UHGV virus genome: UHGV-0090882 | Strand: one strand, 5' to 3' | DNA: 40,500 nt | Source: a virus | Shown here: in pieces, positions 8,919 to 28,782 of the stretch | Layout of the letters: each line of letters starts with the position of its first letter | How positions within the stretch are numbered: the stretch's first letter is position 1 | Made by a program: the position numbers and the translations under genes | Notes under the pieces: generated by a model | What the model was told of the DNA's origin: nothing | The model's input: the letters and a program-made list of their open reading frames with translations, nothing else | The model's database searches: none

Positions 8919-8942
8919 AAAAACAAGGCCGCGAAAGCGGCC
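8919..8942 (-). terminator. Rho-independent terminator of the minus-strand virion operon
   Basis: Stem GGCCGC-gaaa-GCGGCC with an A-run on the plus strand 5' side (U-run in the minus transcript). Confidence 0.5.
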
Positions 8943-8943
8943 T

Positions 8944-8955
8944 GTGACATGTCAC
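8944..8955. repeat. 12-bp perfect palindrome GTGACATGTCAC (copy 1 of 3)
   Basis: Overlaps the stop of 8952..9248 and abuts a terminator; identical copies at 26506 and 28771. Confidence 0.5.
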
Positions 8956-9248
8956 GTTCCTTTTCTGAATGATAGCCGTTCGAAAAATGATGACATTCCA
9001 CCGCAGACAATAGCAAAGATGATCCCACCAAAGAAGAGAAGGCCAGCCTGCCACCACTCCCACCGCCATACATCCACAGCACCAACCATACCAACAATCG
9101 CTCCAACAAATGGAATATAGCTCACGATGAAAGCAATGGGGGCTGCAATTATCCAGTGCAATCCCCACCATGATTCAAGCCCAGCCATAATTGCTGCCAA
9201 CTGAAAAAGGCCAACGACGATATAAACAATGAATCCTATCGCTTGCAT
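8952..9248 (-). CDS. Small polytopic membrane protein of unknown function
   Basis: 98 aa, about 3 hydrophobic helices; last gene of the injection-protein operon. Confidence 0.45.
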   Translation of the reverse strand: MQAIGFIVYIVVGLFQLAAIMAGLESWWGLHWIIAAPIAFIVSYIPFVGAIVGMVGAVDVWRWEWWQAGLLFFGGIIFAIVCGGMSSFFERLSFRKGT

Positions 9249-9261
9249 GTAGTCACCTATT

Positions 9262-9431
9262 TACCCAGTAAAAATCAGAGGCCTCCCCTCAATAAGGCTT
9301 GCAACAAGAACTATTCCCTGCACAACAAAGATGAACCAGCAAATAGCTTGAGTCTGAGGGTTAAGAAAATATTTGTAGCGGTCAATAAATAACAACCCAC
9401 CAGAAATTATCACACTCAAAATAATTAAAAA
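9262..9431 (-). CDS. Possible very small membrane protein (about 56 aa, GTG start); not in ORF track
   Basis: Open frame found by reading the reverse strand between 9248 and 9444; almost entirely hydrophobic. Confidence 0.25.
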
Positions 9432-9443
9432 CACAACACTTCC

Positions 9444-11918
9444 TTATTGCGGAGTGACATCCTGAGGTCGCCACCAGTATGTCTGATTAAACTCTTTCTT
9501 CGAACGTTGCTCCATTTTACGCAAATAGCCTGGTGAAAAATACTCCTGCATCTGGTTAAAGATCATATGATCGAGAGCCGCCTTTAAGTACCAGAGATTC
9601 GCACCTGGCATCAAACCTTTCCCCAGCTTCACCAGATCACCACCAGTCTGCTCACTCTTCCCTTCCACAGCATTTAACGGTATGCCCTGAGCAATCTTCA
9701 CTACGTCATCAACCAGACCAGCTACCGGGCCAAGCATCGACGCCAGCGCGCCGCTTCCGTACCTAGTGTGATCTGACAATAAAAAGTCACCGTAAAGGCC
9801 AAGGCCACCACCTTTCAGTAGAGCACCAAGCCAGAATTTTGCGGCACCTTCTCCTGTCATCTCTCGAGGATTACGACCAGACGCAAGGTCGTTAAGTTGC
9901 TGCGACAAAGCGCCAAGAATGGTCGTACTGGCAATAAACGTCGCAATATATGCCGCACGCCCACCAGCAGACGGCATACCCATAGCGCGTGACCAGTGAC
10001 GCATAACAACCGAGATAGGGAACGATTTAAACAGGAAAACACTTCTCGTTAATTCACCTTTCCATGTTCCACGCTGAATACCAGAACCGGTTATCAGTTG
10101 CTCACGTGCTCCCGGTGTAATAACAGCCATATCAACTTCTTCAGTTACGGCACCGAGCAGTTTACGCATTGCCTCAAATTTCACTCGTTCAGGCTCACCA
10201 AGATGTTTAACTGCTGAATCAGGGATACGCATAATGCTTTCCGGTGTCAGCATCGTATTATTACCGTTCCCCCAGTCCTCCTGTTGCGCCAGCTTCCATA
10301 CGCTCCAGTCTGTGTCAGTAATCCCTTTGCTTTTCAGGATACGAAAATCAGAGTCATCGAGGCTACGAAGGTCTGGTGTCCGTGACACTACTTCTCCCAG
10401 GCTTCCCATCATGGTTACGCCATAGGCGCGCTTGTGCGCATCTGACCATGCTGTAAGCCCACTGGCACGCATTACGGCCGTTGCCGCCCAACGAGACACT
10501 GACGGCCCCATATTATCCATCGCCCAGCGGTTAACGCTGCCAAGTAGAGATTCCATCGCCAGACCAGCGCGGCGCGCCCGCGCAAGTTCTGTACGGTTCG
10601 TTGGGTCCATAGCTTCAAGCTGGTTGCGGAATAACTGGTTCATTGGAAGGTTGGTAACCTTCGCAGACAGATACATGGTTCCAAGATCAGAGAACGATGA
10701 CAGCAACGCGGATCCGAGTCTGCTGGCAACCAGCCAGTTGCGGATATTGTCAGACCATCGCGCGATGTGCGGATTCGCTACAGGCTGTGTCTTTCCAGAA
10801 ATAAAGTTGTACAGATTCTCTGTGTTGTTCGCCAGCCGCTCGACTTTACCGGTTTTACTCGGGTTAGCTGTTGCCGTTTCTGCCTTAACCTGATCAAGAA
10901 GGGAGCGGAAAACATGATCGGGGTTTGGGCCATATGTTTCCACCAGTGCAATATCTTTACTGATACCTTCCAGGTGACCGACCATGATTTCCCATAGAGA
11001 GCGATCGCCATAAAGTTGCTGATATTGCAGATAGGAATCTGCATCTTTGAAATGTATCTGTCGTGATGCATTACCACGGTTAGCACGTGCGCCGGAAATT
11101 CGCATTCCGGTATCAGTAAGCTTATTCAGCCCACCAGTAGCGATCGTGTTATAAGCCTCTCCAAGAAATGCAGACAACTCGGCATCGTTCATCAGTTGTC
11201 CATCGGCTCGGGTATAATATTTGCGATCCAGCTTACCTATAACATCGCTAACCCATTTATCTTTTGATACCGCCCCAACCTTTTCCATAGAATGATGTTG
11301 AGGGATCCCCCAGTTTTCGAGATAGCCAATGTCCCCACCAGCATCATTAAACCGGCGGCGGAGTAGATCTGTCACTTCTCTCCACGCCTTAGCACCTTTT
11401 CTTGCTTTAGCATTGCCAGTATTTTGCCCTCGCATTTCATATACCAGGTCACGCACGCCCGCTTCATCTTCAAACAGGCCAAAAAAGCGAGGATCAACTG
11501 CTTCGAATGCCTCCTGCAATTGACTCAATGCATAATCACGAGTGGCTTTTGTTCTGGACTCAACAGAGAGGAAATTCGATTTACCGTCTGCATTAAAAGC
11601 AATAGTACGGTTAAGAGCGCCAAGTTTCCCATCAGCCCCTTGATAGCTATTGATAAATTTATCCAATCTCTGACGTGCGGCTATAGTAAGAGCCACACGA
11701 CGTTTCTTTAATGCCGCTTCTCGCTGTAATTCTTCAGATGCCAATTGTGCTGCACGATACAGCCGCTCTGACTCGGAAAGTTGTCGCCACGACATAGGGT
11801 CATCACGAGCAATGGAGCGCATATTGCGATAAATGCGGTCTTCAATGTTCTGTATTTCTCGCGCCGTTAACGTGCGCTGCGCCGCCTGCTGGACCGCTTG
11901 TATACATTCCTGTCTCAT
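9444..11918 (-). CDS. Large internal virion / DNA-injection protein
   Basis: 824 aa in the block of large proteins between the tail tubular genes and the tailspike, matching the position of T7-type internal core proteins. Confidence 0.5.
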   Translation of the reverse strand: MRQECIQAVQQAAQRTLTAREIQNIEDRIYRNMRSIARDDPMSWRQLSESERLYRAAQLASEELQREAALKKRRVALTIAARQRLDKFINSYQGADGKLGALNRTIAFNADGKSNFLSVESRTKATRDYALSQLQEAFEAVDPRFFGLFEDEAGVRDLVYEMRGQNTGNAKARKGAKAWREVTDLLRRRFNDAGGDIGYLENWGIPQHHSMEKVGAVSKDKWVSDVIGKLDRKYYTRADGQLMNDAELSAFLGEAYNTIATGGLNKLTDTGMRISGARANRGNASRQIHFKDADSYLQYQQLYGDRSLWEIMVGHLEGISKDIALVETYGPNPDHVFRSLLDQVKAETATANPSKTGKVERLANNTENLYNFISGKTQPVANPHIARWSDNIRNWLVASRLGSALLSSFSDLGTMYLSAKVTNLPMNQLFRNQLEAMDPTNRTELARARRAGLAMESLLGSVNRWAMDNMGPSVSRWAATAVMRASGLTAWSDAHKRAYGVTMMGSLGEVVSRTPDLRSLDDSDFRILKSKGITDTDWSVWKLAQQEDWGNGNNTMLTPESIMRIPDSAVKHLGEPERVKFEAMRKLLGAVTEEVDMAVITPGAREQLITGSGIQRGTWKGELTRSVFLFKSFPISVVMRHWSRAMGMPSAGGRAAYIATFIASTTILGALSQQLNDLASGRNPREMTGEGAAKFWLGALLKGGGLGLYGDFLLSDHTRYGSGALASMLGPVAGLVDDVVKIAQGIPLNAVEGKSEQTGGDLVKLGKGLMPGANLWYLKAALDHMIFNQMQEYFSPGYLRKMEQRSKKEFNQTYWWRPQDVTPQ

Positions 11919-11923
11919 TTAAT

Positions 11924-13726
11924 TTAACCTCTCAAGAAACACGCCACAGCGACATCAAACAGGCTGGAATCCTGTATTGCCTGCTCACTTTCCCTGTTCG
12001 TTTCATCCAGTACTTCACGCGCACTGCGCGATTGTGGATTACCATCATCATCCAGCACGGTGATTATCATGTCAGGTGATTCAAGCAGCGAGTCTTCAGC
12101 TATGCGCAGATCAATATCTCCTGCCTGATCTGACATCATTTTTTGTTCTGTCTGTTGCAATATCTTACCGGGCTCAAAAGGAGCTACTTCGTCTGGCGTC
12201 CTGACCTCTGCTGTTTTATAGAATGAAACAGCCTGAGCATTAAGTTCACTTTCTGCCTGCTGTCGCCGTGCCAGTTCTGCTCGAGCTTCAAAAAACTGAC
12301 CGCCAGGCTCATGCGGTGCCAACGCGTTACGGGAAAATTCCAAGCGTTCTTGTGCCTGCCGGATTCGTTGGTCAATATCGCGAAGTCTGGCCTGTTTATC
12401 TGATCGAGCACGAGATAAAGCCTTACCGCTACCGGTTGGCTCTTCTGCAAGAATTTGTGCGCGCTGTTCAGTGAGATTTTCAATAATTCGTTGGCTATTA
12501 GCGATTTCAGACTGGTAAACCTGTCTATCGCCACGCGGCAAAAGCTGCGCGGCCTGTTCTTCAAGCAACCGATTTTCTATAGCGCGCGCCGTTACTCCAT
12601 CATCTACAGATGACAGAGCCTCATTAACTGCCTGAGACAGCAGACTCTTGCGCCCAGGAATTTCACTGAAAGATGCAGACTCAACAATGCTGGCAACGTC
12701 TACAGGTCTCCCCTGGCTAACATCAGACATGGCTTTTCGCAGAGCCTGAATGTGCGAATTACGCGAAAGCACGTTGATCGGAACGCCGGGAGCAATATCA
12801 ATTTCAGCATGATGAGCGGCATTCGCCGCCAGTGCAGCATCGATATCAACTGGTGCAAAATTTGGTGCGCTTGTAGACTCGCCGCGAGAGTTCATAAATC
12901 TGCCGACACCACCAAACGCCACCCCAAGAACAGCATCAATAGCAATTGCCTGTCGATCCAACACATCATACTGGTTAGCCATTTCGCTATAGCCACCATC
13001 ACGAAGCGTTTTTGCAGTAAGCCCACGCTGTGCCATACCGAACGCAATATTTGTACCTGCGGCATAGGCAATATCTGGCGTTGCACGTACTGCTGTTGCT
13101 GCGGCGCGTCGCACTGAACTTTCACCCGTCCGCGCAAGCTGGGCCGCCACACCTTCCGCCAGCGCACCACCAGCACGTAACCCGAGGCTCATAGGGATCA
13201 GTGTTCCGGCACCAGCAGTAATACCCTGCACTAATCCCGCTTCCTGCGCCGTCCTGAAATCAACACCCTGAGCGGACAGGCGCTCAAATTCAGAGAATCC
13301 CTGAAGAGAGGTAACTGCGGCTGCGCCACCAATCGGCCCTGCTAATGCTGAACCGACAACAGCCTGTCCGCCCATATCGAACAACCCATAAAGAACCTGC
13401 CCGGCGGTTCCGGTTGTCGCGGCATCAGGCGTCAACCGCTTAACCTGCTGCTCTGCTAGTTTTCTCTGCTCGGCAATGTATGAAACTGAAGTATCATTGA
13501 ACGAGGTGTTTTCGTTAACAAACTGAGCAATCGGGGATACGATTTTATCCATTCCTGCCCATAGCAACTGGTCTGGCTTTGCCACCAGCCCGGAGTACAA
13601 ACCAGACAATGCCGCTCCTACAGCATTGTCGAAAAAACCAACATCGCTGTTAAAGCCCGCTGGATTTGATGCTGCTTCGTCAAGCTGCTGATTCTGGTTT
13701 ACTGGATTAAGGCCAAAGTAACTCAT
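11924..13726 (-). CDS. Internal virion / injection protein
   Basis: 600 aa, Ala/Gly-rich N-terminus, coiled-coil segments; position in the core-protein block. Confidence 0.45.
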   Translation of the reverse strand: MSYFGLNPVNQNQQLDEAASNPAGFNSDVGFFDNAVGAALSGLYSGLVAKPDQLLWAGMDKIVSPIAQFVNENTSFNDTSVSYIAEQRKLAEQQVKRLTPDAATTGTAGQVLYGLFDMGGQAVVGSALAGPIGGAAAVTSLQGFSEFERLSAQGVDFRTAQEAGLVQGITAGAGTLIPMSLGLRAGGALAEGVAAQLARTGESSVRRAAATAVRATPDIAYAAGTNIAFGMAQRGLTAKTLRDGGYSEMANQYDVLDRQAIAIDAVLGVAFGGVGRFMNSRGESTSAPNFAPVDIDAALAANAAHHAEIDIAPGVPINVLSRNSHIQALRKAMSDVSQGRPVDVASIVESASFSEIPGRKSLLSQAVNEALSSVDDGVTARAIENRLLEEQAAQLLPRGDRQVYQSEIANSQRIIENLTEQRAQILAEEPTGSGKALSRARSDKQARLRDIDQRIRQAQERLEFSRNALAPHEPGGQFFEARAELARRQQAESELNAQAVSFYKTAEVRTPDEVAPFEPGKILQQTEQKMMSDQAGDIDLRIAEDSLLESPDMIITVLDDDGNPQSRSAREVLDETNRESEQAIQDSSLFDVAVACFLRG

Positions 13727-16236
13727 TGCGGAATATCTCCGGAGAATCTCTGACGCTTCTGTGTCAGATCAAGAACAACAGGAGAACCATCATCTTTCAG
13801 CAGATAACCAGTACCAAGTTTCACCAGATACTGACTATCGCCGTAACTTTGCAAACCATACTGACCAGGCGGTGTTTTTATCCCGGTGCCGACAACTTGT
13901 TCATTCCAAGCCTGATTAACCTGCTTATCGAATTGCTCTGCAGACATTCCCCACGGCAAAAGGACATTCCCCATTCCGTTATAGTCATGCACGCCACCTG
14001 TAGCTACGTTAACAGCCTGTTTCCAGATATCAGTGTCAATTTCACCTGATATCACGCCTTTTTTCGCCATCACACCAGCGTAATAGTCCTTTGCGATCTC
14101 GTATGCCATTGATGCCCCCTGAGCATCACCAGCAAATGCATCCTTCACCATGTCAGAAAACTCAAGGCGAAGATCAGCATCTTTAGGCATCGGAATACCT
14201 TTCGCATCATCAGTACCTTTACGAGCCGCCGCGCCAGCAAGAATTGTCTGCGCAGCGGTTTCAGGAGACACGGAAACATCCGGATTAAACCAGTTTTTTT
14301 CTGCCAAAATACCACCAGGCTTGTCCATCAGTATCCCGGCAACGGCAGCAGATGGAGCGTTGGCACTGATCTGCTGTAGTGCTGACATATACACCTGCCC
14401 ACCACCAGTGCTCTGCCTGATGGTATCGAGATATGCTGCCTGTTGGGAAACTGGAGCATCACGAAAGAAAACACCGATCTGATTGGCCTCGTCTTTGGAA
14501 AAGAACGTCAGTGGAGTGCCATATGACTTAGCAAGGTCACTGACCTGAGCGGCACGCAAGGCAACGCTCTGTCCAAAGTTATCCTTATTGCTCATGTCGA
14601 TAGGCTTTGTCTGTCCGGAGGCAAGAGAGAACTGCACAGGATCCGACTGCCGCTGCTTTATCACCTGATTTGCAGCCGAAACAACGTTGTCATAAAGAGC
14701 TGCGCGTGCCGCATACCCCTCCCCTGTTTCACCAGTATCCGGGCGTAATTGCTCAACATATGCTGTAATGCTGCTTGTCGGCATGTTGCGGAAAGAGCCT
14801 ATATACTGTCCGGCGATCTGCGTATTCTTAAACTCGGTATATCGCAGGTTTCCTTCTCTGACTCCATAAGCTGCAATAAAATCATCCTCACCAGGTGGGT
14901 TAGGAAATTCAACGCCACGCATATACGCAGCCGTCGCATCGCGAACCCGGCTGTCGAGCATCGTTTTATATTCAGCCTGCTGTTGTCTGGCTAGTGCATC
15001 AGTCTGTCGCAACACGCTGGCCTGATCTGATTCACTTAAAGCATCGAACCAGGCTACACCGGTATAACGTTTATTTTTTGTCGGTAGCTGAGAAAGCCCC
15101 AGCGCAGCACTAACACCTGCAGTTAACTGCTGATCACTGTATGGCTGGCTACCGTTTTCATGATGGATAATGGCTGCACAAAGCGCCTTCAGGGTATCAG
15201 GATTTGATGCATCGAGAGGCTCATCAGCAGAAACGCCAAGTTGTTCGCACACTGCTTTGATATACGACATAGTGTCATTTTTATCAGTAGGCGGTGCCCA
15301 GCGATTAATTATCTCGCTGACGGTATCAATACCCTGCCGCTGATACGACATCAGGTTCCGCCCTAATGCACGAATACCGTGTTCAGGGGTTTCGAATTTG
15401 GCAAAGCGACCATCATCACCAGTCTGCCCAACCCACGGATTAGTTTTGCTGTATTCAAGATTGCCGGGGTTATTGTTGCGTATACCGCGGGTACGATCGG
15501 AAGAGCCACTATCTGCTACAGCACGGCGAGATCCAGCAGCAGTATCGCTTAACTCGCCGTTTTGCTGTCTTACCTGAAGATAGTTTGCTCCAATAGCATT
15601 TTGAGCAGTTGCTTTTGCTGTTGCTTCTTTAAACTCGATTTTCTTGGCCTGGATTTGCTCGTCACTCCAGCCATGTGCAATGCCGTAATCCTCAATTTGC
15701 TGGAAAGTTTGCTTATTAGCCAATACGTATGCGGCGTTGTCGCCATACAATGCTGCGGCATTTTTACCATTGTTCAGCAGCGTAGCCTGAAACTGGCCTT
15801 CTTCGTAGGCATTTATTTGCCCTATCTCGTGCCGCCCTGCCTGCGTAGTGAACTGAATGCGCTGCTGCTGCGCCTGCTGCATGAAAGCATTACGAGCCTG
15901 TTCATCCGGCAGCGACATAGCCAGTTGTTCGACCTGAGCATCAAACTGCTGCGTATACTCCTGACCTTTTCCAATAGCATTTTTCCCTTTCAGGTTAAGC
16001 AATCCTGTTTCAGGATTATTCAGCAGATCACTGCTTATCTGACTGAGGTTAAGAGATGCCTCCTGAGCCAGAGCGATATTGGCACGCTGTTTTTCCTGAC
16101 CAAAAACATCAATTGCCTCTGTCCCTGCCCGAACAAAAGCATTACCAATACCTGGCTGAGAAAACGTCTGCAAGCCTGCTGACTGAACTCCACGGCTCTG
16201 AACCTGACGGCCGGATACTGTTGGTACGACTGGCAT
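13723..16236 (-). CDS. Internal virion protein, possibly with a cell-wall-degrading domain
   Basis: Start trimmed to ATG 16236 (GGAGG upstream, TAATG overlap with the preceding gene). Conserved-looking block RGIRNNNPGNLEYSKTNPWVGQ...; hydrolase function is inference. Confidence 0.45.
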   Translation of the reverse strand: MPVVPTVSGRQVQSRGVQSAGLQTFSQPGIGNAFVRAGTEAIDVFGQEKQRANIALAQEASLNLSQISSDLLNNPETGLLNLKGKNAIGKGQEYTQQFDAQVEQLAMSLPDEQARNAFMQQAQQQRIQFTTQAGRHEIGQINAYEEGQFQATLLNNGKNAAALYGDNAAYVLANKQTFQQIEDYGIAHGWSDEQIQAKKIEFKEATAKATAQNAIGANYLQVRQQNGELSDTAAGSRRAVADSGSSDRTRGIRNNNPGNLEYSKTNPWVGQTGDDGRFAKFETPEHGIRALGRNLMSYQRQGIDTVSEIINRWAPPTDKNDTMSYIKAVCEQLGVSADEPLDASNPDTLKALCAAIIHHENGSQPYSDQQLTAGVSAALGLSQLPTKNKRYTGVAWFDALSESDQASVLRQTDALARQQQAEYKTMLDSRVRDATAAYMRGVEFPNPPGEDDFIAAYGVREGNLRYTEFKNTQIAGQYIGSFRNMPTSSITAYVEQLRPDTGETGEGYAARAALYDNVVSAANQVIKQRQSDPVQFSLASGQTKPIDMSNKDNFGQSVALRAAQVSDLAKSYGTPLTFFSKDEANQIGVFFRDAPVSQQAAYLDTIRQSTGGGQVYMSALQQISANAPSAAVAGILMDKPGGILAEKNWFNPDVSVSPETAAQTILAGAAARKGTDDAKGIPMPKDADLRLEFSDMVKDAFAGDAQGASMAYEIAKDYYAGVMAKKGVISGEIDTDIWKQAVNVATGGVHDYNGMGNVLLPWGMSAEQFDKQVNQAWNEQVVGTGIKTPPGQYGLQSYGDSQYLVKLGTGYLLKDDGSPVVLDLTQKRQRFSGDIPQ

Positions 16237-16781
16237 TATAATCCTCCGGGTAATCTGGTTCCTGCTGCTGCCCCGATTGGCGCAGGGGTGCTTTGAGTAA
16301 ACGGACTCCACGTCCCACCAAACATCTGGTACGCACCGTATGCCTTCAGAGGCGCAGTGAGCAATGTTGTTGCTGCTCCCACATTCCCCTGTTTACGGGC
16401 TGAACTGGCTTCTGCTTTATAGTTGGCAGCCTGAACCTGATAACCGTAAGCCTCGCGTTGCGCGTTATTCACCGTCGTCAGAGAATCAAGAGCGCCAAAC
16501 TGGGCAGTGTCGCCAAATATATCCAGCGCGTTACCTGTAGATAAATCAGCGCCGGTAGCCCCCATTGTCGCCGCCTGTGTACCAAGCCGCTGTCGGGTCT
16601 CTCTGCGCCGTTGCTCAGCTTCAGCGTTACCTCTGTTTATTGCATCATTTGCCTGAGCTGTGGCTATATCTGCGTTCGCTTCTGCAACCTTCGAGGCATA
16701 CTTTCCCTGTTGGTACTGGGTGTATGCCTGAATGCTACTCATGGCGAGCATTGCGCCACCAGCAATAACCGGATCGCACAT
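16236..16781 (-). CDS. Internal virion protein (T7 gp14-like by position and size)
   Basis: 181 aa, Ala/Gln-rich. Confidence 0.4.
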   Translation of the reverse strand: MCDPVIAGGAMLAMSSIQAYTQYQQGKYASKVAEANADIATAQANDAINRGNAEAEQRRRETRQRLGTQAATMGATGADLSTGNALDIFGDTAQFGALDSLTTVNNAQREAYGYQVQAANYKAEASSARKQGNVGAATTLLTAPLKAYGAYQMFGGTWSPFTQSTPAPIGAAAGTRLPGGL

Positions 16782-20650: not shown

Positions 20651-20694
20651 TCCTGCAATAAAGGGGCCGAAGCCCCTTGTCGGATTCGCGAGGC

Positions 20695-21039: not shown

Positions 21040-21040
21040 C

Positions 21041-21478: not shown

Positions 21479-21529
21479 CTTCTTTCTCCATTAGTGGGCC
21501 TGTTACGACCCACTGGTTAATAACAGGCG

Positions 21530-22522: not shown

Positions 22523-22530
22523 TTCCTCTC

Positions 22531-23232
22531 TTATTTGCCATAGAGCACTTCGGCCGCACTACGCTGGCCTTCATTACCACCGGTGACCATGCCATCTTCA
22601 GACATCGCCTTTCCGATTTTCACGAACGTTTTGACCAGATCAGGGTGATTACCCAGCCCGGTGGTGTTCAGATATTCTTTGAGCTCAGGTGTCCCGAACT
22701 GGTCAAGCGCACGCTGTGCGGCGCTAAGGTTAGAAATCAACTTGTCGCCACCGATTTCTTTGTCAGCTTTTACATCCGCAGCCCACTGCTCGGTTGTTTT
22801 CTGCCAGGCTTCTGCCTGGCGCTGCTGAACACCTGCCAGAATCTTCGGATAAGCATCAACCAGCTTTTGCGCTTGCTCGTTGGTCAGGTTAAGTTCTCGC
22901 GCCACAGGCTCGAATTCCTTCAACGCTTCTGTATCCAGCTCTACGCCTTCGGCAGCCTGAAACTCGTACTTCTCAGGCGCACCCTCTGGTTTATCGCCGT
23001 CCTTTTTTTCATCCTGCTTATCGTTTTCAGGCTTTTTGTCATCAGCAGGTTTATCGCCATCAGCAACAGGTTGTGGCTTATCACCTTCCGATTGTGATGG
23101 ATCACCAACTGGAGCAGGGTTATCACCTGCAGGCGCTGACGGTTCTGACGCAGCCGGAGCTGCTCCACCATCGACTGGTTGCTCATTGCAAAGACGGCGA
23201 TACAGCAAACGCTCAAATAAATTCATGATCAC
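22531..23232 (-). CDS. Scaffolding protein
   Basis: 233 aa, highly acidic low-complexity N-terminus then helical region; between portal and capsid. Confidence 0.55.
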   Translation of the reverse strand: MIMNLFERLLYRRLCNEQPVDGGAAPAASEPSAPAGDNPAPVGDPSQSEGDKPQPVADGDKPADDKKPENDKQDEKKDGDKPEGAPEKYEFQAAEGVELDTEALKEFEPVARELNLTNEQAQKLVDAYPKILAGVQQRQAEAWQKTTEQWAADVKADKEIGGDKLISNLSAAQRALDQFGTPELKEYLNTTGLGNHPDLVKTFVKIGKAMSEDGMVTGGNEGQRSAAEVLYGK

Positions 23233-23525
23233 TCCTGTTCACTGGCCTCTTTGGCCATCTTCAAATACTGTTCAGGGCAATGCGCCATAACGCGCTGAAA
23301 CAGTTCCAGCGCCAGATTGCGTTGCCCCTCATTAAATGCCATAGCCATAGCGTCCATCGGTGAGATAGCGGAAAACACACGGCCTTTCTCCAGCACCGAC
23401 CAGACAACGCGACGCCCCTGTTCACTGCTCATGACAAAGCAAATGTCATCAATTTCACGCTGTGCCATGTCACGTTGCTTACGGGCGTTTTCTTCTTTCA
23501 GTTGATCGTCTTCGTAATCTGTCAT
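23229..23525 (-). CDS. Small phage protein between portal and scaffold
   Basis: 98 aa; 4-nt overlaps on both sides. Confidence 0.4.
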   Translation of the reverse strand: MTDYEDDQLKEENARKQRDMAQREIDDICFVMSSEQGRRVVWSVLEKGRVFSAISPMDAMAMAFNEGQRNLALELFQRVMAHCPEQYLKMAKEASEQE

Positions 23526-25201
23526 TGTGATTGCCCACCCTGACCACTAACTGCATTCGCCATAGCTGACAAAACACTCGGATCCGAAGTTTTAGCTTCG
23601 CTTAGCGTCTTGGCACCCTGTGCCGCCGCCATCCCCATCGCCATCATTTGTTGCTGCTGTTGTTGCTGTGCCCGTTGCTGGCGAGCCTGCTCAACCTGTT
23701 CCTGCGGAACAATGACGGTTGGAGACACTCCAGACATATCAGCGAATGCATCGATCGCCTGATCAACGTTGAGTTTGTCGAGAGCTTCTGGTTTCGCTTG
23801 CGCAAGTTGACCAATGAAGTTAACCGTGGACGCCAGACTGGACAGGCCGATAGACTTCTGCGCCTGAGCCATGACGGAAATGTATTCGACCTTCAGGGGC
23901 ATGCCTTCCATCGCGTCAGGCGGTGGCGGCAACATGTTTTTACGCACCATCATCGAGAAAGCGCGGTCAATGAGAGGATTAAGACATTCGTCGTTCAGAC
24001 GCTCCAGAACCGGCCCCAACATCAGAAGTTTTTCTTCTTTCATTTCGATCACCGCTTCAACAGGCATCGAGCGGGTATTGATGTTCTGCAACATCATGAA
24101 CAGATCGACAAAGTAGGCGCTGTTAATGATTTGACGAGTGTCCTGAATGTCTGCCACCAAATCTGCTGTACTGGGGTTAACCAGATAAGCAGGCCTGAAG
24201 CCATCCTGACCAGTAATCTGATCGATATACGTGATGTCGCCAGGAAGAAGGGAGGCGCGCTGATTCTTGAGGGAAGTCGGAGCAACCATCGGCGGATTGG
24301 TGGCTTTATCAATCAACTGCGACTTGCGCTTCTGGAGAAGCTGCAATGCCTTAACAGGTCCAAGCGCCAGCATACCCGGGCATGATGATCCATAAACATC
24401 TTCGCCGTTAACTTCCCAGCGCGGAGCCATAATTGGAAACTCATCGAATCCGGACTCACGCAACAACTTGTCGTTATCGCCACCAACCTCGTAATAAACC
24501 GATTTGAATGGCTTGTTCTTGCTATCCAGCTTCGATGTATCGCGGTCAATGTTCGGGTAAACCGAATGCATCACTTCAATCCACTTCTCGTAGGTGCCGC
24601 TTTCCCACATGCTTTTTACGGATTCGCTGACGTTATTTAGCCCGAACTCCTGAACAAGCTGACGAACAGTCATAGAGAACTTGCGAAAACAGGTGTCCAC
24701 ACTGCCACGAGGTGAGTTAGCCAGGTAGTAACTGCCTATCGGGAATGGCATTGTGCGAATGATGTCCTCGTCATCCTCCAGCACTGCCATTGCACCAGTG
24801 CTGTATGTGCCGAGGCTTCCGTATAACTGCGGCAGCGACTGATAGAGATTCGACTTATTGAACATATCGTTCATGCGGTTCTGCACCGCCTCAAGCCACA
24901 ACTTAACAGGGCCATAATCCATCATTTCAGGATCTGGCGTAGCCAGGCGAAACCACGGACGCGCGGGGCTTGTGATGCCTGACATCATGCCGCTGGCGAG
25001 AGTGCGCTCCGCCATAGTCCCGGTCGAATCAATAATGCGTGTATTGCGTCGATCGTTACGGTTGACCTCAGAAGTCAGAAAGCGGGAACCACGCGGGTTG
25101 ATGTAATCACTCAACTCGCGCCAGTGCGGTTCGAACGACTGACGCTCGCTTTCAAGTTGTGCGAACTGTTTGTTCAATCGCTCTTTAGTTGTTTCCGCCA
25201 T
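23522..25201 (-). CDS. Portal (head-to-tail connector) protein
   Basis: 559 aa with poly-Q/Ala-rich C-terminal tail; position between terminase and scaffold/capsid. Confidence 0.65.
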   Translation of the reverse strand: MAETTKERLNKQFAQLESERQSFEPHWRELSDYINPRGSRFLTSEVNRNDRRNTRIIDSTGTMAERTLASGMMSGITSPARPWFRLATPDPEMMDYGPVKLWLEAVQNRMNDMFNKSNLYQSLPQLYGSLGTYSTGAMAVLEDDEDIIRTMPFPIGSYYLANSPRGSVDTCFRKFSMTVRQLVQEFGLNNVSESVKSMWESGTYEKWIEVMHSVYPNIDRDTSKLDSKNKPFKSVYYEVGGDNDKLLRESGFDEFPIMAPRWEVNGEDVYGSSCPGMLALGPVKALQLLQKRKSQLIDKATNPPMVAPTSLKNQRASLLPGDITYIDQITGQDGFRPAYLVNPSTADLVADIQDTRQIINSAYFVDLFMMLQNINTRSMPVEAVIEMKEEKLLMLGPVLERLNDECLNPLIDRAFSMMVRKNMLPPPPDAMEGMPLKVEYISVMAQAQKSIGLSSLASTVNFIGQLAQAKPEALDKLNVDQAIDAFADMSGVSPTVIVPQEQVEQARQQRAQQQQQQQMMAMGMAAAQGAKTLSEAKTSDPSVLSAMANAVSGQGGQSQ

Positions 25202-25215
25202 TTCAATGACTCCGG

Positions 25216-25422
25216 TTACTGACCAAGCAGCGTTTTACCGCTGGTATTAGCGGTTGATGTGTCGCCCTGAGAACCGGTAAGCAGCGTAGAACTACGACCA
25301 GCAGCAGCGCGACGGCGACGAGTTTCTTCGTCGCGGGCATCAACAACGGCGGCATCCTGCTCCTGTGGTGCTGCCTGAACTTCTGGTGTTGCAGGCACTG
25401 ATGGTGAGCTACCCATGCACAT
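25216..25422 (-). CDS. Small protein upstream of portal
   Basis: Start trimmed to ATG 25422 (GGAG upstream); 68 aa, Ala/Arg-rich. Confidence 0.35.
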   Translation of the reverse strand: MCMGSSPSVPATPEVQAAPQEQDAAVVDARDEETRRRRAAAGRSSTLLTGSQGDTSTANTSGKTLLGQ

Positions 25423-25490
25423 ATCAATGACTCCGTACGCAATCAAATTATTACCAATTTAACCACATATGATTTATTTATCGTAGATAG

Positions 25491-25519
25491 TTGACATTTA
25501 ACGCACAAATTATTACCTT
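25491..25519 (+). promoter_or_regulatory. Putative plus-strand promoter (TTGACA -35) driving the non-coding region and tRNA
   Basis: TTGACA at 25491-25496 followed by an AT-rich -10 region (AATTATTACC) that overlaps operator site 4; same layout as the early-left promoter at 34973. Confidence 0.4.
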
Positions 25520-25528
25520 TCAGGTAAC
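25512..25528. promoter_or_regulatory. Operator-like palindrome ATTACCTTTCAGGTAAC (site 4)
   Basis: Core identical to site 1. Confidence 0.5.
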
Positions 25529-25548
25529 CAAAGAGTTCATTCCGGTTA

Positions 25549-25849
25549 CTAACCTGACTGGCTTGTCGTTAAATTGAACAGGTGGAGTGAGCTTTTATTT
25601 TGAGCAGTACGGCGTATGGCACATGCGCCGATAGCGGTCTGGATACGTTTAAGGGGCACCCTACCTTGCTCGGGCAAACGAACCAGGTAGCCGGAATGTG
25701 CAAGTCGAGCGGTTTTATTCCGCGCACGGGGATTCACCATCCCGGCGATTCGGTGTGACGCCTCGGAAGAGACGAGGGTGCAACGATGAGAGCATTTATG
25801 GAGCCGCGACAAAGTGTGGCGCCTTAACAGGCTAAGTGCTCTCAGCGTT
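25549..25849 (+). ncRNA. Candidate non-coding RNA / structured leader upstream of the tRNA
   Basis: About 300 nt with no plus-strand ORF of 60 aa or more, between a promoter-like element and the tRNA; several local inverted repeats. Confidence 0.3.
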
Positions 25850-25926
25850 GTGGCATTAGCTCAGTTGGACAGAGCAACCGCCTTCTAAGCGGTTGGTCGC
25901 AGGTTCGAATCCTGCATGCCACGCCA
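25850..25926 (+). tRNA. tRNA-Arg (anticodon UCU), phage-encoded
   Basis: Full cloverleaf readable by hand: acceptor GTGGCAT/ATGCCAC, D-stem GCTC/GAGC, anticodon stem ACCGC/GCGGT with loop CTTCTAA, T-arm GCAGG-TTCGAAT-CCTGC, 3' CCA encoded. Confidence 0.9.
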
Positions 25927-25969
25927 GAATCACGCCTAAGGACCGTGATGCCAGAAGTTCCAGGGGCTT

Positions 25970-26011
25970 GGCGGTGATGGTTTCCCTTGAAGGACTATCA
26001 CCGCCCTTTTT
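25970..26011 (+). terminator. Hairpin plus T-run downstream of the tRNA
   Basis: Stem GGCGGTGAT / ATCACCGCC (large loop) followed by CTTTTT. Confidence 0.45.
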
Positions 26012-26089
26012 ACAGCAGGACGCCATTGCGATGACTTCATGCTGTAAACCAGTACAGCCACGGAAGGCATAACTCATTGCTTCCAGTTC

Positions 26090-26113
26090 GCCCGGTTCGC
26101 CGGGCATTTTTTT
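26090..26113 (+). terminator. Rho-independent terminator
   Basis: Stem GCCCGG-ttcg-CCGGGC followed by A and T7; lies 17 nt before the RBS of the 26130 gene. Confidence 0.55.
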
Positions 26114-26129
26114 AAGGTGAGATTAGACT

Positions 26130-26501
26130 ATGAGTGACAAAGACATTGAATCTGAAATTCAGGCTAAAGGTTTAGCCGCGCCGCGCGTTACGCCAGACCA
26201 TATCGAGAGCATTATTGCTCAGGAGGCATATTTCACAGCAGAAGATGGTGTCTTTGGCGTAGCCATAAAAGCGAAACATACTGGCGGAGAGGTAAACTAC
26301 CAGCCGCACGAATCACTTTCTCTGCTGACGTTCTGCGTTCTGGTGCTGCGCAACGGCTTCACCGTCACCGGAGAGAGCGCCTGTGCAAGCCCGGAAAACT
26401 TTGATGCGGAAATTGGTCGGAAGATTGCCCGGCAGAATGCTGTAAACAAAATCTGGATGCTTGAAGGTTACTTGCTGAAGCAGAAGTTAAGCGAGCAATA
26501 A
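26130..26501 (+). CDS. Gp49-like phage protein (N4 gp49 / Sf6 gene 66 family), function unknown
   Basis: 123 aa; C-terminal block LRNGFTVTGESACASPENFDAEIGRKIARQNAVNKIW recalled as that family. RBS AGGTGA. Confidence 0.5.
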   Translation: MSDKDIESEIQAKGLAAPRVTPDHIESIIAQEAYFTAEDGVFGVAIKAKHTGGEVNYQPHESLSLLTFCVLVLRNGFTVTGESACASPENFDAEIGRKIARQNAVNKIWMLEGYLLKQKLSEQ

Positions 26502-26505
26502 CACC

Positions 26506-26517
26506 GTGACATGTCAC
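26506..26517. repeat. 12-bp palindrome GTGACATGTCAC (copy 2 of 3)
   Basis: Four nt after the stop of 26130..26501, immediately before a terminator hairpin. Confidence 0.5.
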
Positions 26518-26549
26518 AAACAGCCAGCCGATGAGCTGGCTTTGTTTTA
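26518..26549 (+). terminator. Rho-independent terminator after the gp49-like gene
   Basis: Stem AGCCAGC / GCTGGCT (loop cgatga) followed by TTGTTTT. Confidence 0.5.
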
Positions 26550-26591
26550 TCCTCACCAGAGGATATCTCCGTCATTATCCCCGCTAACGGA

Positions 26592-28067
26592 TTAAGCATA
26601 GGGATCGTAATCTGTAATGGCCTTGCCTTGCTGGTTCTGCTGCCCGGGAATTCGCAGACGCTTAGACACAGGGAACGCAAACGTCAGCAGTAGCGCATCG
26701 CCTTTACCCGGCGAACGCCCAAGCCGCTCCTTGATATCTTCCTTCGGTTCGATAACGATTTTACCGTCCACTCGAACTTTGTACTCTGCCGCCGACAGGT
26801 CGTCCGCTGTTTCCTGGTCATCCAGCATGCCGCCCAGCCTCAGCCATGTCTTGCATGAGTTGAACATCTCCCCACGCTTGTTGAGCATCTGCGGGTCAGT
26901 AGACGCGCCACCGAACGGAACAAGTTGCCATGTGCGCCCCCAACCGTCACCGATTGACTTCAGCCCGGTACCGTAACCGAAGTCGATGAACACCGCGTCA
27001 GCCTGATACTGGTCTTCAAAGTCAGCGATACGCTTTGCCATAATCAGATCGTCAGTGGTCTTGTTGCCGGTCCACAGCACCTTACTGTGCAGCCCCTGCC
27101 GCAGGTATATCACCGCGTCATCAACACCGGAGTATGCAGGGTCAACGCCGATTATCACCGGAGCATGTGCCACCTGCGCAGCAGTTACCACCCGTTTCAT
27201 TGCCTCGTCAGTAAGACCGGTAGGGATAAACTGCAATTCAGATGCATCAGGGAATATGCCGCGCACACGGATTTTAACGAAGTCGCTGTCTTCCCCGTAG
27301 TCATCAACCCATTTATGCAACTGCTGTTTGTTGGTGCCTTCCACCGTCCGGCTGTCAATCTGCGCAGTTTTCCAGCGGTGTTTATATTTGCGGAAACATT
27401 CGCGGAAACGTCCGGTATTACGCGTCGGGTTTCCGAACGCCACCCAGATAATCTCAGTGTCTTCGTCCGTTAGCGCACCCTCGGCAACTTCCCACACCAG
27501 ATCCGCAATGTTCGACGCTTCATCGAATACCACGATGATGCGTTTGCGCTCGTTGTGTAGTCCGGCGAATGCCTCAGTGTTGTGCTCAGACCAGGGTATT
27601 GCGTCAGCTCGCCACCGCTTGTCGTGTCCAGGATCATTGCTGTACATCGCAGTAGCGGTACAGGTAAACCAGTCTTTCGTGATAGCAAGGTTCGACCACT
27701 TGATAATTTCCGGCCAGGTCTTCGTTCGTAGCTGGTTGTCGGTGTTGGCGGTCACCACGACCTTACAATCCTCGCAAGTGGACATGCCCCAGTTGATCAG
27801 CATTGAGATGAATGCGGATTTACCAATACCGTGACCAGAAGCGCGTGCCAGCATAAGCGGCTGATAGCGCGTCTCTGGATTCTGCAGGTGATCACGTATC
27901 TCTCGGAACGCATCAGCCTGCCACTGACGTGGGCCAGTAGCATGTGCCAGTTCAGTCCCCTCTTCCCCCCACGGGAACGCATAGAGGGCATAACCAAGCG
28001 GATCGTGAGTAAACCCTGCAATATCCTCGATCAACTGCTCTTCAGGAGATAACACTGTATCTGTCAC
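26592..28067 (-). CDS. terL: Terminase large subunit
   Basis: 491 aa; Walker-A-like ARASGHGIGKS near the N-terminus; overlaps the small subunit stop; precedes the portal. Confidence 0.8.
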   Translation of the reverse strand: MTDTVLSPEEQLIEDIAGFTHDPLGYALYAFPWGEEGTELAHATGPRQWQADAFREIRDHLQNPETRYQPLMLARASGHGIGKSAFISMLINWGMSTCEDCKVVVTANTDNQLRTKTWPEIIKWSNLAITKDWFTCTATAMYSNDPGHDKRWRADAIPWSEHNTEAFAGLHNERKRIIVVFDEASNIADLVWEVAEGALTDEDTEIIWVAFGNPTRNTGRFRECFRKYKHRWKTAQIDSRTVEGTNKQQLHKWVDDYGEDSDFVKIRVRGIFPDASELQFIPTGLTDEAMKRVVTAAQVAHAPVIIGVDPAYSGVDDAVIYLRQGLHSKVLWTGNKTTDDLIMAKRIADFEDQYQADAVFIDFGYGTGLKSIGDGWGRTWQLVPFGGASTDPQMLNKRGEMFNSCKTWLRLGGMLDDQETADDLSAAEYKVRVDGKIVIEPKEDIKERLGRSPGKGDALLLTFAFPVSKRLRIPGQQNQQGKAITDYDPYA

Positions 28068-28660
28068 TGATTACCATCCTGACGTTCTTTGAGTCGCTTC
28101 CTGGCTGCTGCTATGCGATCAGCAATTGTCACATTCACATTAACATCCAGGCGTTCTTTGAATGCGTTGACGTCGACGTGCTTACCAATCAGTTCGAGGT
28201 TCTTCACCTTGTCAGGCCATTTAATTTTTTTGAGGATTGTCTCTATCGAATCCTCGTTCATGTTCATGATGGTCGATGACAGATCAAAGCCGCTAAGCGT
28301 AGTGCGCCAGATTTTCGGCCACTCGCGGATTGGCTTAAGGCTCCCATCGTCGTTGAGGATGTCTATCACGTCCATCTGGTCGATCTCCACCAGGCGCATG
28401 AGAACGTAATCAGCACTGACGCGCATTCGTTTGTTGCGCTCCTCCATCAACTCGGCAATCCGTTTTTGAATGCGTTCATCGCGCATCATGACACTGGCTT
28501 TAACTGCCGCTGTATTTGGGGAGAATCCTGCATTAATCGCTGCCTGAGTCTGGTTTTCAGGCGTTTTGATGTATGACTGGCAATAAGCCTCCTGCATTGC
28601 TGTTAGTGGCTTAAATTGCGTTGATTTGCGTTTATAGGCTTTAGGTTCAGCAGGCATCAT
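28064..28660 (-). CDS. terS: Terminase small subunit
   Basis: N-terminal LTAMQEAYCQSYIKTPENQTQAAINAGFS resembles small-subunit HTH regions. Start trimmed to ATG 28660 because the track's N-terminal extension reads through operator sites 5-6. Confidence 0.65.
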   Translation of the reverse strand: MMPAEPKAYKRKSTQFKPLTAMQEAYCQSYIKTPENQTQAAINAGFSPNTAAVKASVMMRDERIQKRIAELMEERNKRMRVSADYVLMRLVEIDQMDVIDILNDDGSLKPIREWPKIWRTTLSGFDLSSTIMNMNEDSIETILKKIKWPDKVKNLELIGKHVDVNAFKERLDVNVNVTIADRIAAARKRLKERQDGNQ

Positions 28661-28675
28661 AACCACCGTGGTAAT
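28659..28675. promoter_or_regulatory. Operator-like site ATAACCACCGTGGTAAT (site 5)
   Basis: One mismatch in the left arm; overlaps the terS start. Confidence 0.4.
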
Positions 28676-28676
28676 A

Positions 28677-28693
28677 GTTACCGTTGTGGTAAT
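28677..28693. promoter_or_regulatory. Operator-like palindrome GTTACCGTTGTGGTAAT (site 6)
   Basis: Tandem with site 5, centres 18 bp apart. Confidence 0.45.
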
Positions 28694-28710
28694 AGTATCA
28701 TGCAAAATAA

Positions 28711-28730
28711 AGCCGCCATAGTTGGCGGCA
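28711..28730 (-). terminator. Minus-strand rho-independent terminator between the nin-like block and terS
   Basis: Stem GCCGCC / GGCGGC with an A-rich run on the plus-strand 5' side (U-run in the minus transcript). Confidence 0.45.
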
Positions 28731-28770
28731 GTATTCAAACCCCATCAAATTCATCATGCATAATCTACTC

Positions 28771-28782
28771 GTGACATGTCAC
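28771..28782. repeat. 12-bp palindrome GTGACATGTCAC (copy 3 of 3)
   Basis: Overlaps the stop of 28779..29120 at the same register as copy 1. Confidence 0.5.

What the first reader, a model, noticed from the sequence alone, without database searches (positions are those of the whole stretch)
8944..28782. 12-bp perfect palindrome GTGACATGTCAC present three times, always beside a terminator hairpin
Identical copies at 8944, 26506 and 28771. Two overlap the stop codon of a minus-strand gene in exactly the same register, and all three lie within about 60 nt of an intrinsic terminator at a transcription-unit boundary. The chance of three exact 12-mers in 40 kb is negligible. Possible roles are a regulator or processing site, a methylation/restriction-related site, or a recombination hotspot delimiting exchangeable modules.
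Basis: seen in the sequence. Interest (0 to 1): 0.55.

Follow-up and report, generated by a model that had tools for sequence, protein, structure and literature searches.

The report
Phage regulator's matS-like binding sites
The three identical 12-base palindromes are most likely the docking sites of a small, unstudied DNA-binding protein that this prophage encodes (its gene ends inside one copy); the same gene-plus-site pair recurs in several unrelated phage groups, and the site is the host's chromosome-organising matS site with one central base missing.

Summary
GTGACATGTCAC occurs exactly three times (8944, 26506, 28771; none in 100 shuffles). Two copies overlap a minus-strand TGA stop in the same register. 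Each lies 0-41 nt upstream of a strong intrinsic terminator.

The window is an epsilon15/phiV10-like (Uetakevirus) prophage. The 12-mer is a fully conserved island at the same three places in seven divergent relatives whose flanks are unalignable.

The motif travels with one gene, the 112-aa protein ending inside copy A (28779-29117, PHROG 536, no Pfam). Homologues in ZF40, N15/phiKO2, Yersinia P2-like phages and Vibrio phage K308 each come with GTGAC-N2-GTCAC. There are usually about three copies per genome, and in most lineages one lies at or beside the gene's own stop codon. I counted 35 sites against 0.5 expected.

The protein models as ribbon-helix-helix-like, plus a Cys-rich domain weakly resembling TraR/DksA. 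The arms equal those of host matS (GTGAC-N3-GTCAC), but the spacing is strictly N2.

Best reading: these are cognate sites of this phage protein, acting here at transcription-unit ends. The direction of the effect is unknown. Restriction/methylation, RNA-processing and recombination readings are not supported. I found nothing on this pair in the searchable literature.

The parts
28771..28782 (.). Palindrome copy A. It overlaps the TGA stop of the gp49-family gene and lies 41 nt upstream (late strand) of terminator A and 111 nt upstream of the probable TerS start.
26506..26517 (.). Palindrome copy B, between the large terminase gene (minus strand) and a convergent accessory gene (plus strand). 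It lies 4 nt after that gene's TAA and 4 nt before hairpin B.
8944..8955 (.). Palindrome copy C. It overlaps the TGA stop of the last gene of the structural operon and directly abuts terminator C.
28779..29117 (-). Gene for the 112-aa gp49 / PhiV10p55 / N15 gp46-family protein (PHROG 536, no Pfam). This is the proposed binder of the palindrome and the last gene of the early-right operon.
28712..28729 (-). Terminator A hairpin (GCCGCCAACTATGGCGGC followed by TTTATTTT), at the end of the early-right operon.
26522..26541 (+). Terminator B hairpin. It is strong in the plus direction (end of the accessory gene) and has a weak T tract, GTTTGTG, that runs into the palindrome in the late direction.
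8926..8943 (-). Terminator C hairpin (AGGCCGCTTTCGCGGCCT followed by TGTTTTT), at the end of the structural operon.
8952..9248 (-). 98-aa ORF (PHROG 3075, unknown function), the last gene of the structural operon. Its stop codon lies inside copy C.
26130..26501 (+). Sf6 gp66 / N4 gp49-like accessory gene (PF13876), convergent with the terminase genes.
26592..28067 (-). Large terminase subunit gene.
28064..28660 (-). Small terminase subunit gene (PF03592). The ATG at 28660 is inferred from the 597-nt epsilon15 gene; the mechanical ORF runs on to 28738.
28678..28700 (-). Repressor-operator-like TTACC-N5-GGTAA (28678-28692) abutting a conserved extended -10 TGnTACTAT (28692-28700). This is a probable CI-repressed promoter of the terminase block, immediately after terminator A.
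   Evidence: the promoter is an inference

Best explanation
GTGACATGTCAC is one form of a site with consensus GTGAC-N2-GTCAC. It is the cognate double-stranded DNA site of a dimeric, phage-encoded DNA-binding protein, the 112-aa product of 28779-29117 (gp49 of epsilon15, p55 of phiV10, gp46 of N15). This protein is made as the last product of the early-right operon during lytic growth and then occupies three sites on the phage genome. In this phage group each site sits 0-41 nt upstream of the intrinsic terminator that closes a transcription unit: the early-right operon, the accessory gene convergent with terminase, and the structural operon. I therefore propose that the bound protein modulates what RNA polymerase does at these unit boundaries, either termination versus read-through or a roadblock/insulator effect, possibly through its Cys-rich TraR/DksA-like C-terminal half.

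Shown: the motif is real, it is selected, and it is genetically linked to this gene family.

Inferred: that the protein binds the motif, that it acts on transcription, and that it contacts RNA polymerase.

Not known: the direction of the effect.
For: (1) Selection. The 12-mer is invariant at three syntenic places in window, phiV10, epsilon15, Tyrion, PAT1, BUCT554, BUCT711 and SPN1S. The flanks are unalignable or carry different genes, and the neighbouring hairpin stems change by compensation.

(2) Gene linkage across unrelated phages. ZF40 is a myovirus with its own Q; it has a 66% identical homologue and TGTGACATGTCACA three times, one copy 2 nt after the homologue's stop. N15 and phiKO2 have GTGACTGGTCAC three times, one overlapping the gene 46 / gp45 stop in the same register. 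In 48 N15-like loci, all have a site at the gene end. In 53 Yersinia P2-like loci, 47 have it exactly on the stop codon. Vibrio phage K308 has three copies. Two further distant lineages have one within 15 nt of the gene.

(3) Counts. There are 35 sites in 13 genomes against 0.53 expected, and none in lambda or P22. Spacing is strictly N2: 330 sites, against 0-3 for N0, N1 and N3-N6 in 2.9 Mb.

(4) Invariant arms with a free centre are the pattern of a dimeric dsDNA binder.

(6) Terminator adjacency at 3 of 3 sites has P about 1e-5. It is kept in relatives at sites B and C, and at site A in the four compared relatives that keep terminator A there (epsilon15, Tyrion, PAT1, SPN1S), with variable spacing.
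Confidence: 0.55

Rival explanations
1. MatP-like architecture. The sites are matS look-alikes. Either host MatP binds them, or the phage protein acts as a MatP analogue that bridges the three sites, organises or anchors phage DNA, or keeps SMC complexes such as MukBEF off it. It would have no primary role in transcription.
Against: Spacing is strictly N2, never N3 (330 against 2). This shifts the half-sites by one base pair and should not fit a rigid MatP dimer. The sites track the phage gene, not the host. Prophages are reported to avoid matS. No sequence homology to MatP was detectable (hhalign P 0.27; no PF17414 among the family's 25 most frequent weak Pfam hits, of 51 found). The protein lacks MatP's four-helix bundle. 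The non-random placement before terminators is not explained.
Confidence: 0.15
2. Ordinary operator. The protein is a plain repressor or activator of promoters that overlap the palindrome, whose half GTGACA is a 5/6 match to the -35 consensus. Examples would be a promoter at copy A reading toward terminase, and a promoter of the anti-repressor operon in N15.
For: There is a promoter-like GTGACA-18-CATGAT at copy A and GTGACA-18-AATGAT at copy C. GTGACA-17-TAAATT is conserved at copy A in epsilon15, Tyrion and PAT1 (read). In N15 and phiKO2 the palindrome sits 4 nt upstream of a conserved TAAAAT, upstream of the anti-repressor operon. In BUCT711 and BUCT554 copy A lies 6 nt upstream of a strong LexA-box promoter. 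The P22 RHH repressors Arc and Mnt work this way (annotation).
Against: Promoter-like matches are no more frequent than in shuffles. No conserved -10 follows copies B or C in either direction. Many sites in other phages lie inside genes or between tightly packed genes.
Confidence: 0.15
3. RNA element. GUGACAUGUCAC in the 3' untranslated end of three transcripts is a protein-binding or processing signal, for mRNA stability or RNA-level antitermination.
For: All three copies are transcribed just before a terminator, so three transcripts end with the same 12-mer plus hairpin. The protein has an arginine-rich N-terminal helix.
Against: The hairpin is marginal at -1.2 kcal/mol, with z about 0. The arms are invariant with no compensatory change across deep divergence, while the centre varies. 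Perfect two-fold symmetry and a strict N2 spacing are not needed for an RNA hairpin. No Rfam search was run, so known RNA families were not formally excluded.
Confidence: 0.06
4. Recombination or module-exchange signal, or a restriction/methylation target.
For: Homology between relatives breaks within a few bases of copies B and C and just after copy A. The phage encodes RecET-type recombination genes and a methylase (for phiV10).
Against: Three identical palindromes in one genome would promote deletions and inversions. The motif follows the gp49-family gene, not methylases or recombinases, across phages. A 12-bp site with a free centre fits no ordinary restriction-modification specificity. 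Junction positions are expected for any operon-end signal.
Confidence: 0.05

Closest known systems
MatP / matS of E. coli (Ter macrodomain organiser)
   Same: The half-sites GTGAC(A) / (T)GTCAC are identical. The site is palindromic and there are a handful of dispersed copies. The proposed binder has an RHH-type fold preceded by a basic helix and followed by a long helix. The host range is similar.
   Different: The centre is 2 nt, not 3 (12 bp against 13 bp), without exception in 330 sites. The binder is phage-encoded, 112 aa, lacks the four-helix bundle, and carries a Cys-rich C-terminal domain instead of MatP's coiled-coil tail. No significant sequence similarity was found. The sites lie on phage DNA, beside terminators.
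P22 Arc and Mnt (phage ribbon-helix-helix repressors with operators in immI)
   Same: Small phage RHH-type proteins that recognise short symmetric DNA sites. The N15 copy lies in front of an anti-repressor operon, as Arc and Mnt operators do.
   Different: Arc and Mnt operators overlap one promoter next to their genes' 5' ends. Here there are about three dispersed sites, one at the gene's own 3' end, mostly not at promoters. There is an extra Cys-rich domain and no sequence similarity.
Lambda Q / qut (late antiterminator)
   Same: The gene is the last of the early-right operon. Its DNA site lies immediately after the gene, followed within tens of bases by a terminator and then the late genes.
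   Different: There is no homology to any Q family. Q needs a promoter and a sigma-dependent pause and acts from one site; here there are three sites, two of them at operon ends. ZF40 and N15 carry both a Q gene and a family member, so the family is not a Q substitute in general.
TraR / DksA / YbiI C4 zinc-finger proteins (RNA polymerase secondary-channel binders)
   Same: The C-terminal half aligns over about 56-60 residues, including a long helix followed by CxxCGxx[IL]P...G...C.
   Different: The fourth Cys is replaced (T102). The acidic tip is absent. A DNA-binding domain is fused N-terminally. The Pfam model does not hit and fold searches did not recover TraR.
Dispersed centromere sites of N15/phiKO2 SopB
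   Same: A precedent for a phage DNA-binding protein with three or four identical palindromes scattered through regulatory regions of the same genomes.
   Different: The sequence is different (GTGCGACCACGGTCGCAC), as are the protein family (ParB) and the positions.

Membership tests
matS (MatP binding site) | 13-bp consensus GTGAC[AG]N[TC]GTCAC | tested here: not met
   All window copies and 330 related sites have a 2-nt centre (12 bp). Only 2 N3 sites occur in 2.9 Mb. The consensus is taken from PMC3603311 and PMC8669397.
matS (MatP binding site) | Bound by host MatP | not testable with these tools
   Needs EMSA or ChIP. The one-base-pair shift of the half-sites makes binding doubtful (inference).
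matS (MatP binding site) | Confined to the chromosomal Ter macrodomain | tested here: not met
   The sites are on phage genomes of several types. Prophages are reported to lack matS.
Ribbon-helix-helix (Arc/MetJ/CopG) DNA-binding proteins | Strand-helix-helix fold that dimerises | tested here: inconclusive
Ribbon-helix-helix (Arc/MetJ/CopG) DNA-binding proteins | Match to an RHH sequence family at its curated threshold | tested here: not met
   There are only sub-threshold hits: RHH_5, RHH_1 and RepB-RCR_reg in 1-2 of 63 members, and YbfE at E 0.004-0.05. hhalign against Arc and CopG is not significant.
DksA/TraR C4 zinc finger (PF01258) | CxxC-N17-CxxC knuckle after a long helix | tested here: inconclusive
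   C79-x2-C82, then 16 residues, then C99-x2-T102; the last Cys is missing and a further Cys is common near position 91. The profile hits TraR and YbiI at E 0.04-0.05. hhalign gives 63% probability, P 7e-5. There is no Pfam hit and no fold hit.
DksA/TraR C4 zinc finger (PF01258) | Binds the RNA polymerase secondary channel | not testable with these tools
   Needs pull-down, cross-linking or cryo-EM.
Lambda-type Q antiterminators | Homology to a Q family; a Q-binding element inside a late promoter with a promoter-proximal pause | tested here: not met
   There is no Pfam, NCBIfam or PDB similarity to Q. Promoter-like matches at the sites are at chance level. ZF40 and N15 carry separate Q genes.
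Intrinsic (Rho-independent) terminators, for the neighbouring hairpins | G+C-rich hairpin followed by a T tract | tested here: met
   Scans and folds give 8943-8926 (-), 26522-26541 (+) and 28729-28712 (-). phiV10 and epsilon15 annotate terminators at the homologous places. Function was not measured.
Restriction-modification target | Short (4-8 bp) or bipartite specificity matched to a cognate methylase or nuclease | tested here: not met
   The site is 12 bp with 10 fixed bases. Its occurrence follows the gp49-family gene and not any methylase.

The most novel reading that the evidence does not exclude
The protein is a DNA-site-tethered RNA polymerase factor. An RHH-type head would park it on GTGAC-N2-GTCAC. 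A TraR/DksA-like helix plus zinc knuckle would engage the polymerase that transcribes through the site, a few tens of bases before a terminator, and change whether that polymerase stops. That would be a site-specific, terminator-proximal control of termination, unlike N, Q, put RNA or RfaH. The recognition head would be borrowed from, or convergent with, the host MatP/matS system. A second unexcluded novel reading is a phage MatP mimic that organises phage DNA or evicts SMC complexes.
Probability: 0.15. Interest if true: 0.85.

Novelty: new variant of a known kind. Interest (0 to 1): 0.62.

Why it matters
This pairs an unannotated, Pfam-less phage protein family (about 200 clusters at 50% identity, found in podo-, myo- and siphoviruses and P2-like phages of enterobacteria and vibrios) with a precise DNA motif. 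Both become directly testable.

It gives a handle on how epsilon15-like phages, which have no known late regulator, separate or join their early, terminase and structural transcription units.

It also shows that phages carry a one-base-shortened version of the host matS site together with their own reader. This is interesting because true matS is reported to be avoided by prophages. It raises the question of cross-talk with MatP and chromosome organisation.

Practically, the motif GTGAC-N2-GTCAC next to a roughly 110-aa gene is a simple annotation rule for many prophages.

Tried and rejected
- **First structure attempt.** A shallow alignment (48 sequences at >=71% identity) gave pLDDT 62 and meaningless Foldseek hits. 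A diverse alignment was needed.
- **Sequence comparisons.** A single-sequence PDB search found nothing. hhalign of the family against Arc, CopG and MatP was not significant. The last protein search, with MatP, returned only >=97% identical MatPs apart from one at 69%, so no MatP profile could be built.
- **Family libraries.** Pfam gave no family for the protein.
- **Literature.** Full-text searches for the 12-mer and its variants found only unrelated primers. The epsilon15 genome paper is not held. The ZX5 paper concerns the repressor, anti-repressor and integrase only.
- **Promoter idea.** Consensus matches are at chance level and not conserved at copies B and C.
- **Terminator adjacency as a family-wide rule.** Rejected after scanning ZF40 and K308.
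- **CRP, FNR, LexA or repressor operator identity.** The spacing or sequence does not fit (my own knowledge). The phage repressor operator is a different motif, TTACC-N5-GGTAA.
- **Homing or HNH nuclease idea for the Cys-rich tail.** No conserved His or Asn.
- **Toxin-antitoxin idea.** There is no conserved partner gene.
Full report
**1. The observation**

GTGACATGTCAC occurs exactly three times in the 40.5-kb window, at 8944, 26506 and 28771. None of 100 dinucleotide-preserving shuffles gave a single copy. Allowing two mismatches adds only GTGCCATGTCAC at 23462 inside an ORF, which is within chance.

The copies at 28771 and 8944 overlap the TGA stops of minus-strand ORFs 28779..29120 and 8952..9248 in the same register, G-TGA-C. 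The copy at 26506 lies 4 nt after the TAA of a plus-strand gene.

Terminator-like hairpins with T tracts lie 0, 4 and 41 nt from the copies. In each case the palindrome is upstream of the hairpin in the direction of the unit that ends there. With 21 such hairpins in the window, a random position lies <=45 nt upstream of one 2.4% of the time, so 3 of 3 has P about 1.4e-5.

**2. Context**

The window is an integrated epsilon15/phiV10-like podovirus (genus Uetakevirus). It is 95-98% identical to phiv142-3, PAS61, ZX5 and phiV10 and about 77-80% identical to epsilon15 and Tyrion. The phage's conventional plus strand is the window's minus strand.

- Copy A ends the early-right operon. Its last gene (28779-29117) is the homologue of epsilon15 gp49 / phiV10 p55. 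The copy precedes a terminator and the small and large terminase genes.
- Copy B lies between the large terminase gene and a convergent Sf6 gp66-like accessory gene.
- Copy C ends the long structural operon and faces a convergent accessory-gene cluster on the plus strand (a DUF4760 gene here; anti-repressor/Bro-N genes in relatives).

**3. Conservation**

The same 12-mer sits at the same three places in epsilon15, Tyrion, PAT1, BUCT554, BUCT711 and SPN1S, and at two of them in phiV10, whose copy A has one mismatch.

Alignments of +/-60 nt show the 12-mer as an island of identity.
- At copy C the upstream 60 nt are different genes in different phages.
- At copy B the downstream gene differs and the hairpin stems change by compensation.
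- At copy A the downstream spacer varies from 22 to 41 nt, or is replaced by a LexA-box promoter and an inserted gene.

The only variation inside the motif is in the central two bases: GTGACAGGTCAC in BUCT554 copy A and PAT1 copy B. Among 80 close prophage relatives, 75 keep copy A exactly, four have one mismatch and one record is truncated.

**4. Linkage to one gene family**

A tblastn search with the 112-aa protein finds homologues in quite different phages. Each comes with the motif.

| Phage or lineage | Homologue | Sites |
|---|---|---|
| Pectobacterium myovirus ZF40 (lambdoid early region, own Q) | gp22, 66% identity | TGTGACATGTCACA x3; one copy 2 nt after gp22's stop |
| N15 and phiKO2 (linear-plasmid siphoviruses) | 36-38% identity | GTGACTGGTCAC x3 at syntenic places: on the stop of gene 46 / gp45 (same register), inside repA, and upstream of the anti-repressor operon. 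Distinct from the SopB centromere sites. |
| 48 N15-like viral contigs | | Every one has a site at the gene end |
| 53 Yersinia P2-like contigs | | 47 have GTGACGCGTCAC exactly on the stop codon, 4 have it 10 nt later |
| Vibrio siphovirus K308 | 32% identity | Three N2 sites, one 19 nt before the small terminase gene |
| P0249 and P0265 lineages | about 32% identity | A site within 15 nt of the gene |
| P0300 lineage | | Two N1 sites nearby |
| Aeromonas phage, P0225 and P0282 lineages | | None |

Over 13 genomes there are 35 sites against 0.53 expected from composition; lambda and P22 have none. In 2.9 Mb of family-linked DNA the spacing GTGAC-Nk-GTCAC is 330 for k=2 and 0-3 for every other k from 0 to 6.

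The consensus is therefore GTGAC-N2-GTCAC, with invariant arms and a free centre. That is what a dimeric double-strand DNA binder produces, not an RNA hairpin. The 12-mer folds at only -1.2 kcal/mol, like its shuffles.

**5. The protein**

It has no Pfam or NCBIfam family and is only PHROG 536, 'transcriptional regulator'. The family comprises about 198 clusters at 50% identity.

Nearly invariant positions are R8, R13, E54, L59, C79, C82, P87, G95 and C99. The pattern is RKxxQRxR, then an extended segment, a helix, RRPGRxPY, EYIxLLIRxD within a long helix, and CxxCGxxLP...G...C.

With the diverse alignment AlphaFold gives pLDDT 93.3: helix 5-19, extended 22-28, helix 30-42, helix 52-75, a Cys knuckle, and helix 100-108.

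The C-terminal half aligns to the DksA/TraR zinc-finger proteins TraR and YbiI (E 0.04-0.05 against all PDB sequences; hhalign 63% probability, P 7e-5). Fold searches did not recover TraR.

I treat 'RHH-like head' as likely and 'TraR-like tail' as tentative.

**6. Relation to matS**

The host MatP site is GTGAC[AG]N[TC]GTCAC, with E. coli consensus GTGACATTGTCAC (PMC3603311, PMC8669397). MatP reads it with a central RHH domain (PMC12756933).

The phage palindrome is that consensus with the middle base removed. Prophages of Escherichia and Salmonella are reported to contain no matS at all. The phage motif is never N3 in this phage group, and no sequence homology to MatP is detectable.

So the site is not a member of matS. 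It is the closest known thing, and either common ancestry of the reading head or convergence on the same half-site is possible.

**7. How it probably works**

*Shown:* the motif is selected and it is inherited together with the gene, in most lineages touching or lying within about 15 nt of it.

*Inferred:* the protein binds it as a dimer.

For this phage group, the conserved arrangement of palindrome, then 0-41 nt, then a strong terminator, at the 3' ends of three units, points to an action on RNA polymerase at unit boundaries. So do the gene's Q-like position and the possible polymerase-binding tail. That action could be read-through control or a roadblock/insulator.

The sign is unknown. Each late block also carries a repressor-operator-like TTACC-N5-GGTAA (nine in the window). 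The terminase block has a conserved extended -10, TGnTACTAT, right after terminator A. Late genes may therefore not depend on read-through.

In ZF40, N15 and K308 the sites are not next to terminators. The family-level activity is therefore simply site-specific DNA binding, with context-dependent consequences.

My confidence:
- About 0.8 that the palindrome is the cognate site of this protein.
- About 0.4 that its role here is control at transcription-unit ends.

**8. Rivals**

- MatP-like bridging or organisation, or MatP binding: 0.15.
- An ordinary promoter operator: 0.15. This is supported best by the N15 copy, which lies 4 nt before a conserved TAAAAT in front of the anti-repressor operon, and by GTGACA-17-TAAATT at copy A of epsilon15-type phages.
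- An RNA element: 0.06.
- A recombination or restriction-modification signal: 0.05.

The copies do lie at mosaic junctions, but that follows from being operon-end signals beside accessory genes.

**9. Novelty**

Neither the motif nor any function for this protein family turned up in the searchable literature. In kind it is a phage DNA-binding protein with dispersed cognate sites, which is familiar. Three features are unusual:
- the site on the gene's own stop codon across deep divergence;
- the matS half-sites at N2 spacing;
- the possible fusion to a TraR-like module.

I rate it a new variant of a known kind, with interest about 0.6.

Noticed in passing
window 6727, 7107, 25513, 28678, 31833, 31895, 34227, 34939, 35001: A second dispersed motif, TTACC-N5-GGTAA, occurs nine times. 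It is the motif annotated as the 'repressor' binding site in epsilon15. Copies lie in the cI/cro region and also upstream of the terminase block, the portal block and the tailspike gene. This suggests the prophage repressor shuts each late block directly.
   Followed up: partly
window 28692-28700 (minus strand): A conserved extended -10 element TGnTACTAT lies immediately after terminator A and abuts the operator at 28678-28692. It is present in the window and in epsilon15, Tyrion, PAT1 and SPN1S. It is a probable repressor-controlled promoter of the terminase genes that lacks a -35.
   Followed up: partly
L091 (BUCT711) and L092 (BUCT554), just after the gp49 homologue: In these relatives copy A is followed by TTGACT-17-TATACT overlapping a LexA box (TACTGTTTAAATATACAGTA) and a small inserted gene starting MGFPSPA (UmuD/LexA-like N-terminus), instead of the terminator. 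BUCT711 and BUCT554 also carry extra palindrome copies inside structural or holin genes.
   Followed up: no
L001 (phiV10) record ends; L010, L012, L044, L055: The phiV10 reference and a few prophages have a one-base-degraded copy A (GTGACATGTTAC or GTGAAATGTCAC). The deposited phiV10, epsilon15 and Tyrion records are all linearised at or within about 60 nt of this palindrome.
   Followed up: partly
L088 (Vibrio phage K308) 19491-19503: One perfect host-type matS consensus (GTGACACCGTCAC, N3) overlaps the TGA stop of a small gene and is followed by a hairpin. It occurs in a phage that also has three N2 sites.
   Followed up: no
L089 (Aeromonas phage 14AhydR10PP) 25963, 29348, 29628: This phage has a 30% identical family member but no GTGAC-N2-GTCAC. 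It carries the 10-bp palindrome GGTGATCACC three times, which may or may not be a diverged site.
   Followed up: no
L212 (contig carrying P0300) 9090 and 9121: Two GTGAC-N1-GTCAC sites 31 bp apart lie about 350 nt upstream of a distant family member. This may be a lineage with altered spacing preference.
   Followed up: no
L204 (SPN1S) 38348-38656: The SPN1S homologue has a replaced N-terminus (MATTTTRRQN... instead of the RKxxQRxR helix) yet keeps all three palindromes. The long basic helix may therefore not be essential for recognition.
   Followed up: no
window 1276 and about 40450: Similarity to free phage genomes begins near 1276, and the integrase-like ORF 39194..40450 (minus) lies at the right end of the window. 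The close relative ZX5 is reported to integrate at the 3' end of guaA (PMC9782041). The attachment sites were not mapped.
   Followed up: no
window 23462-23473: There is a one-mismatch copy GTGCCATGTCAC inside ORF 23229..23525 (minus). Its count is consistent with chance and it was not examined in relatives.
   Followed up: no
L202 (lambda) 9747 and 19010: Lambda has two GTGAC-N1-GTCAC sites, inside genes G and lom, against about 0.05 expected. This is probably chance.
   Followed up: no
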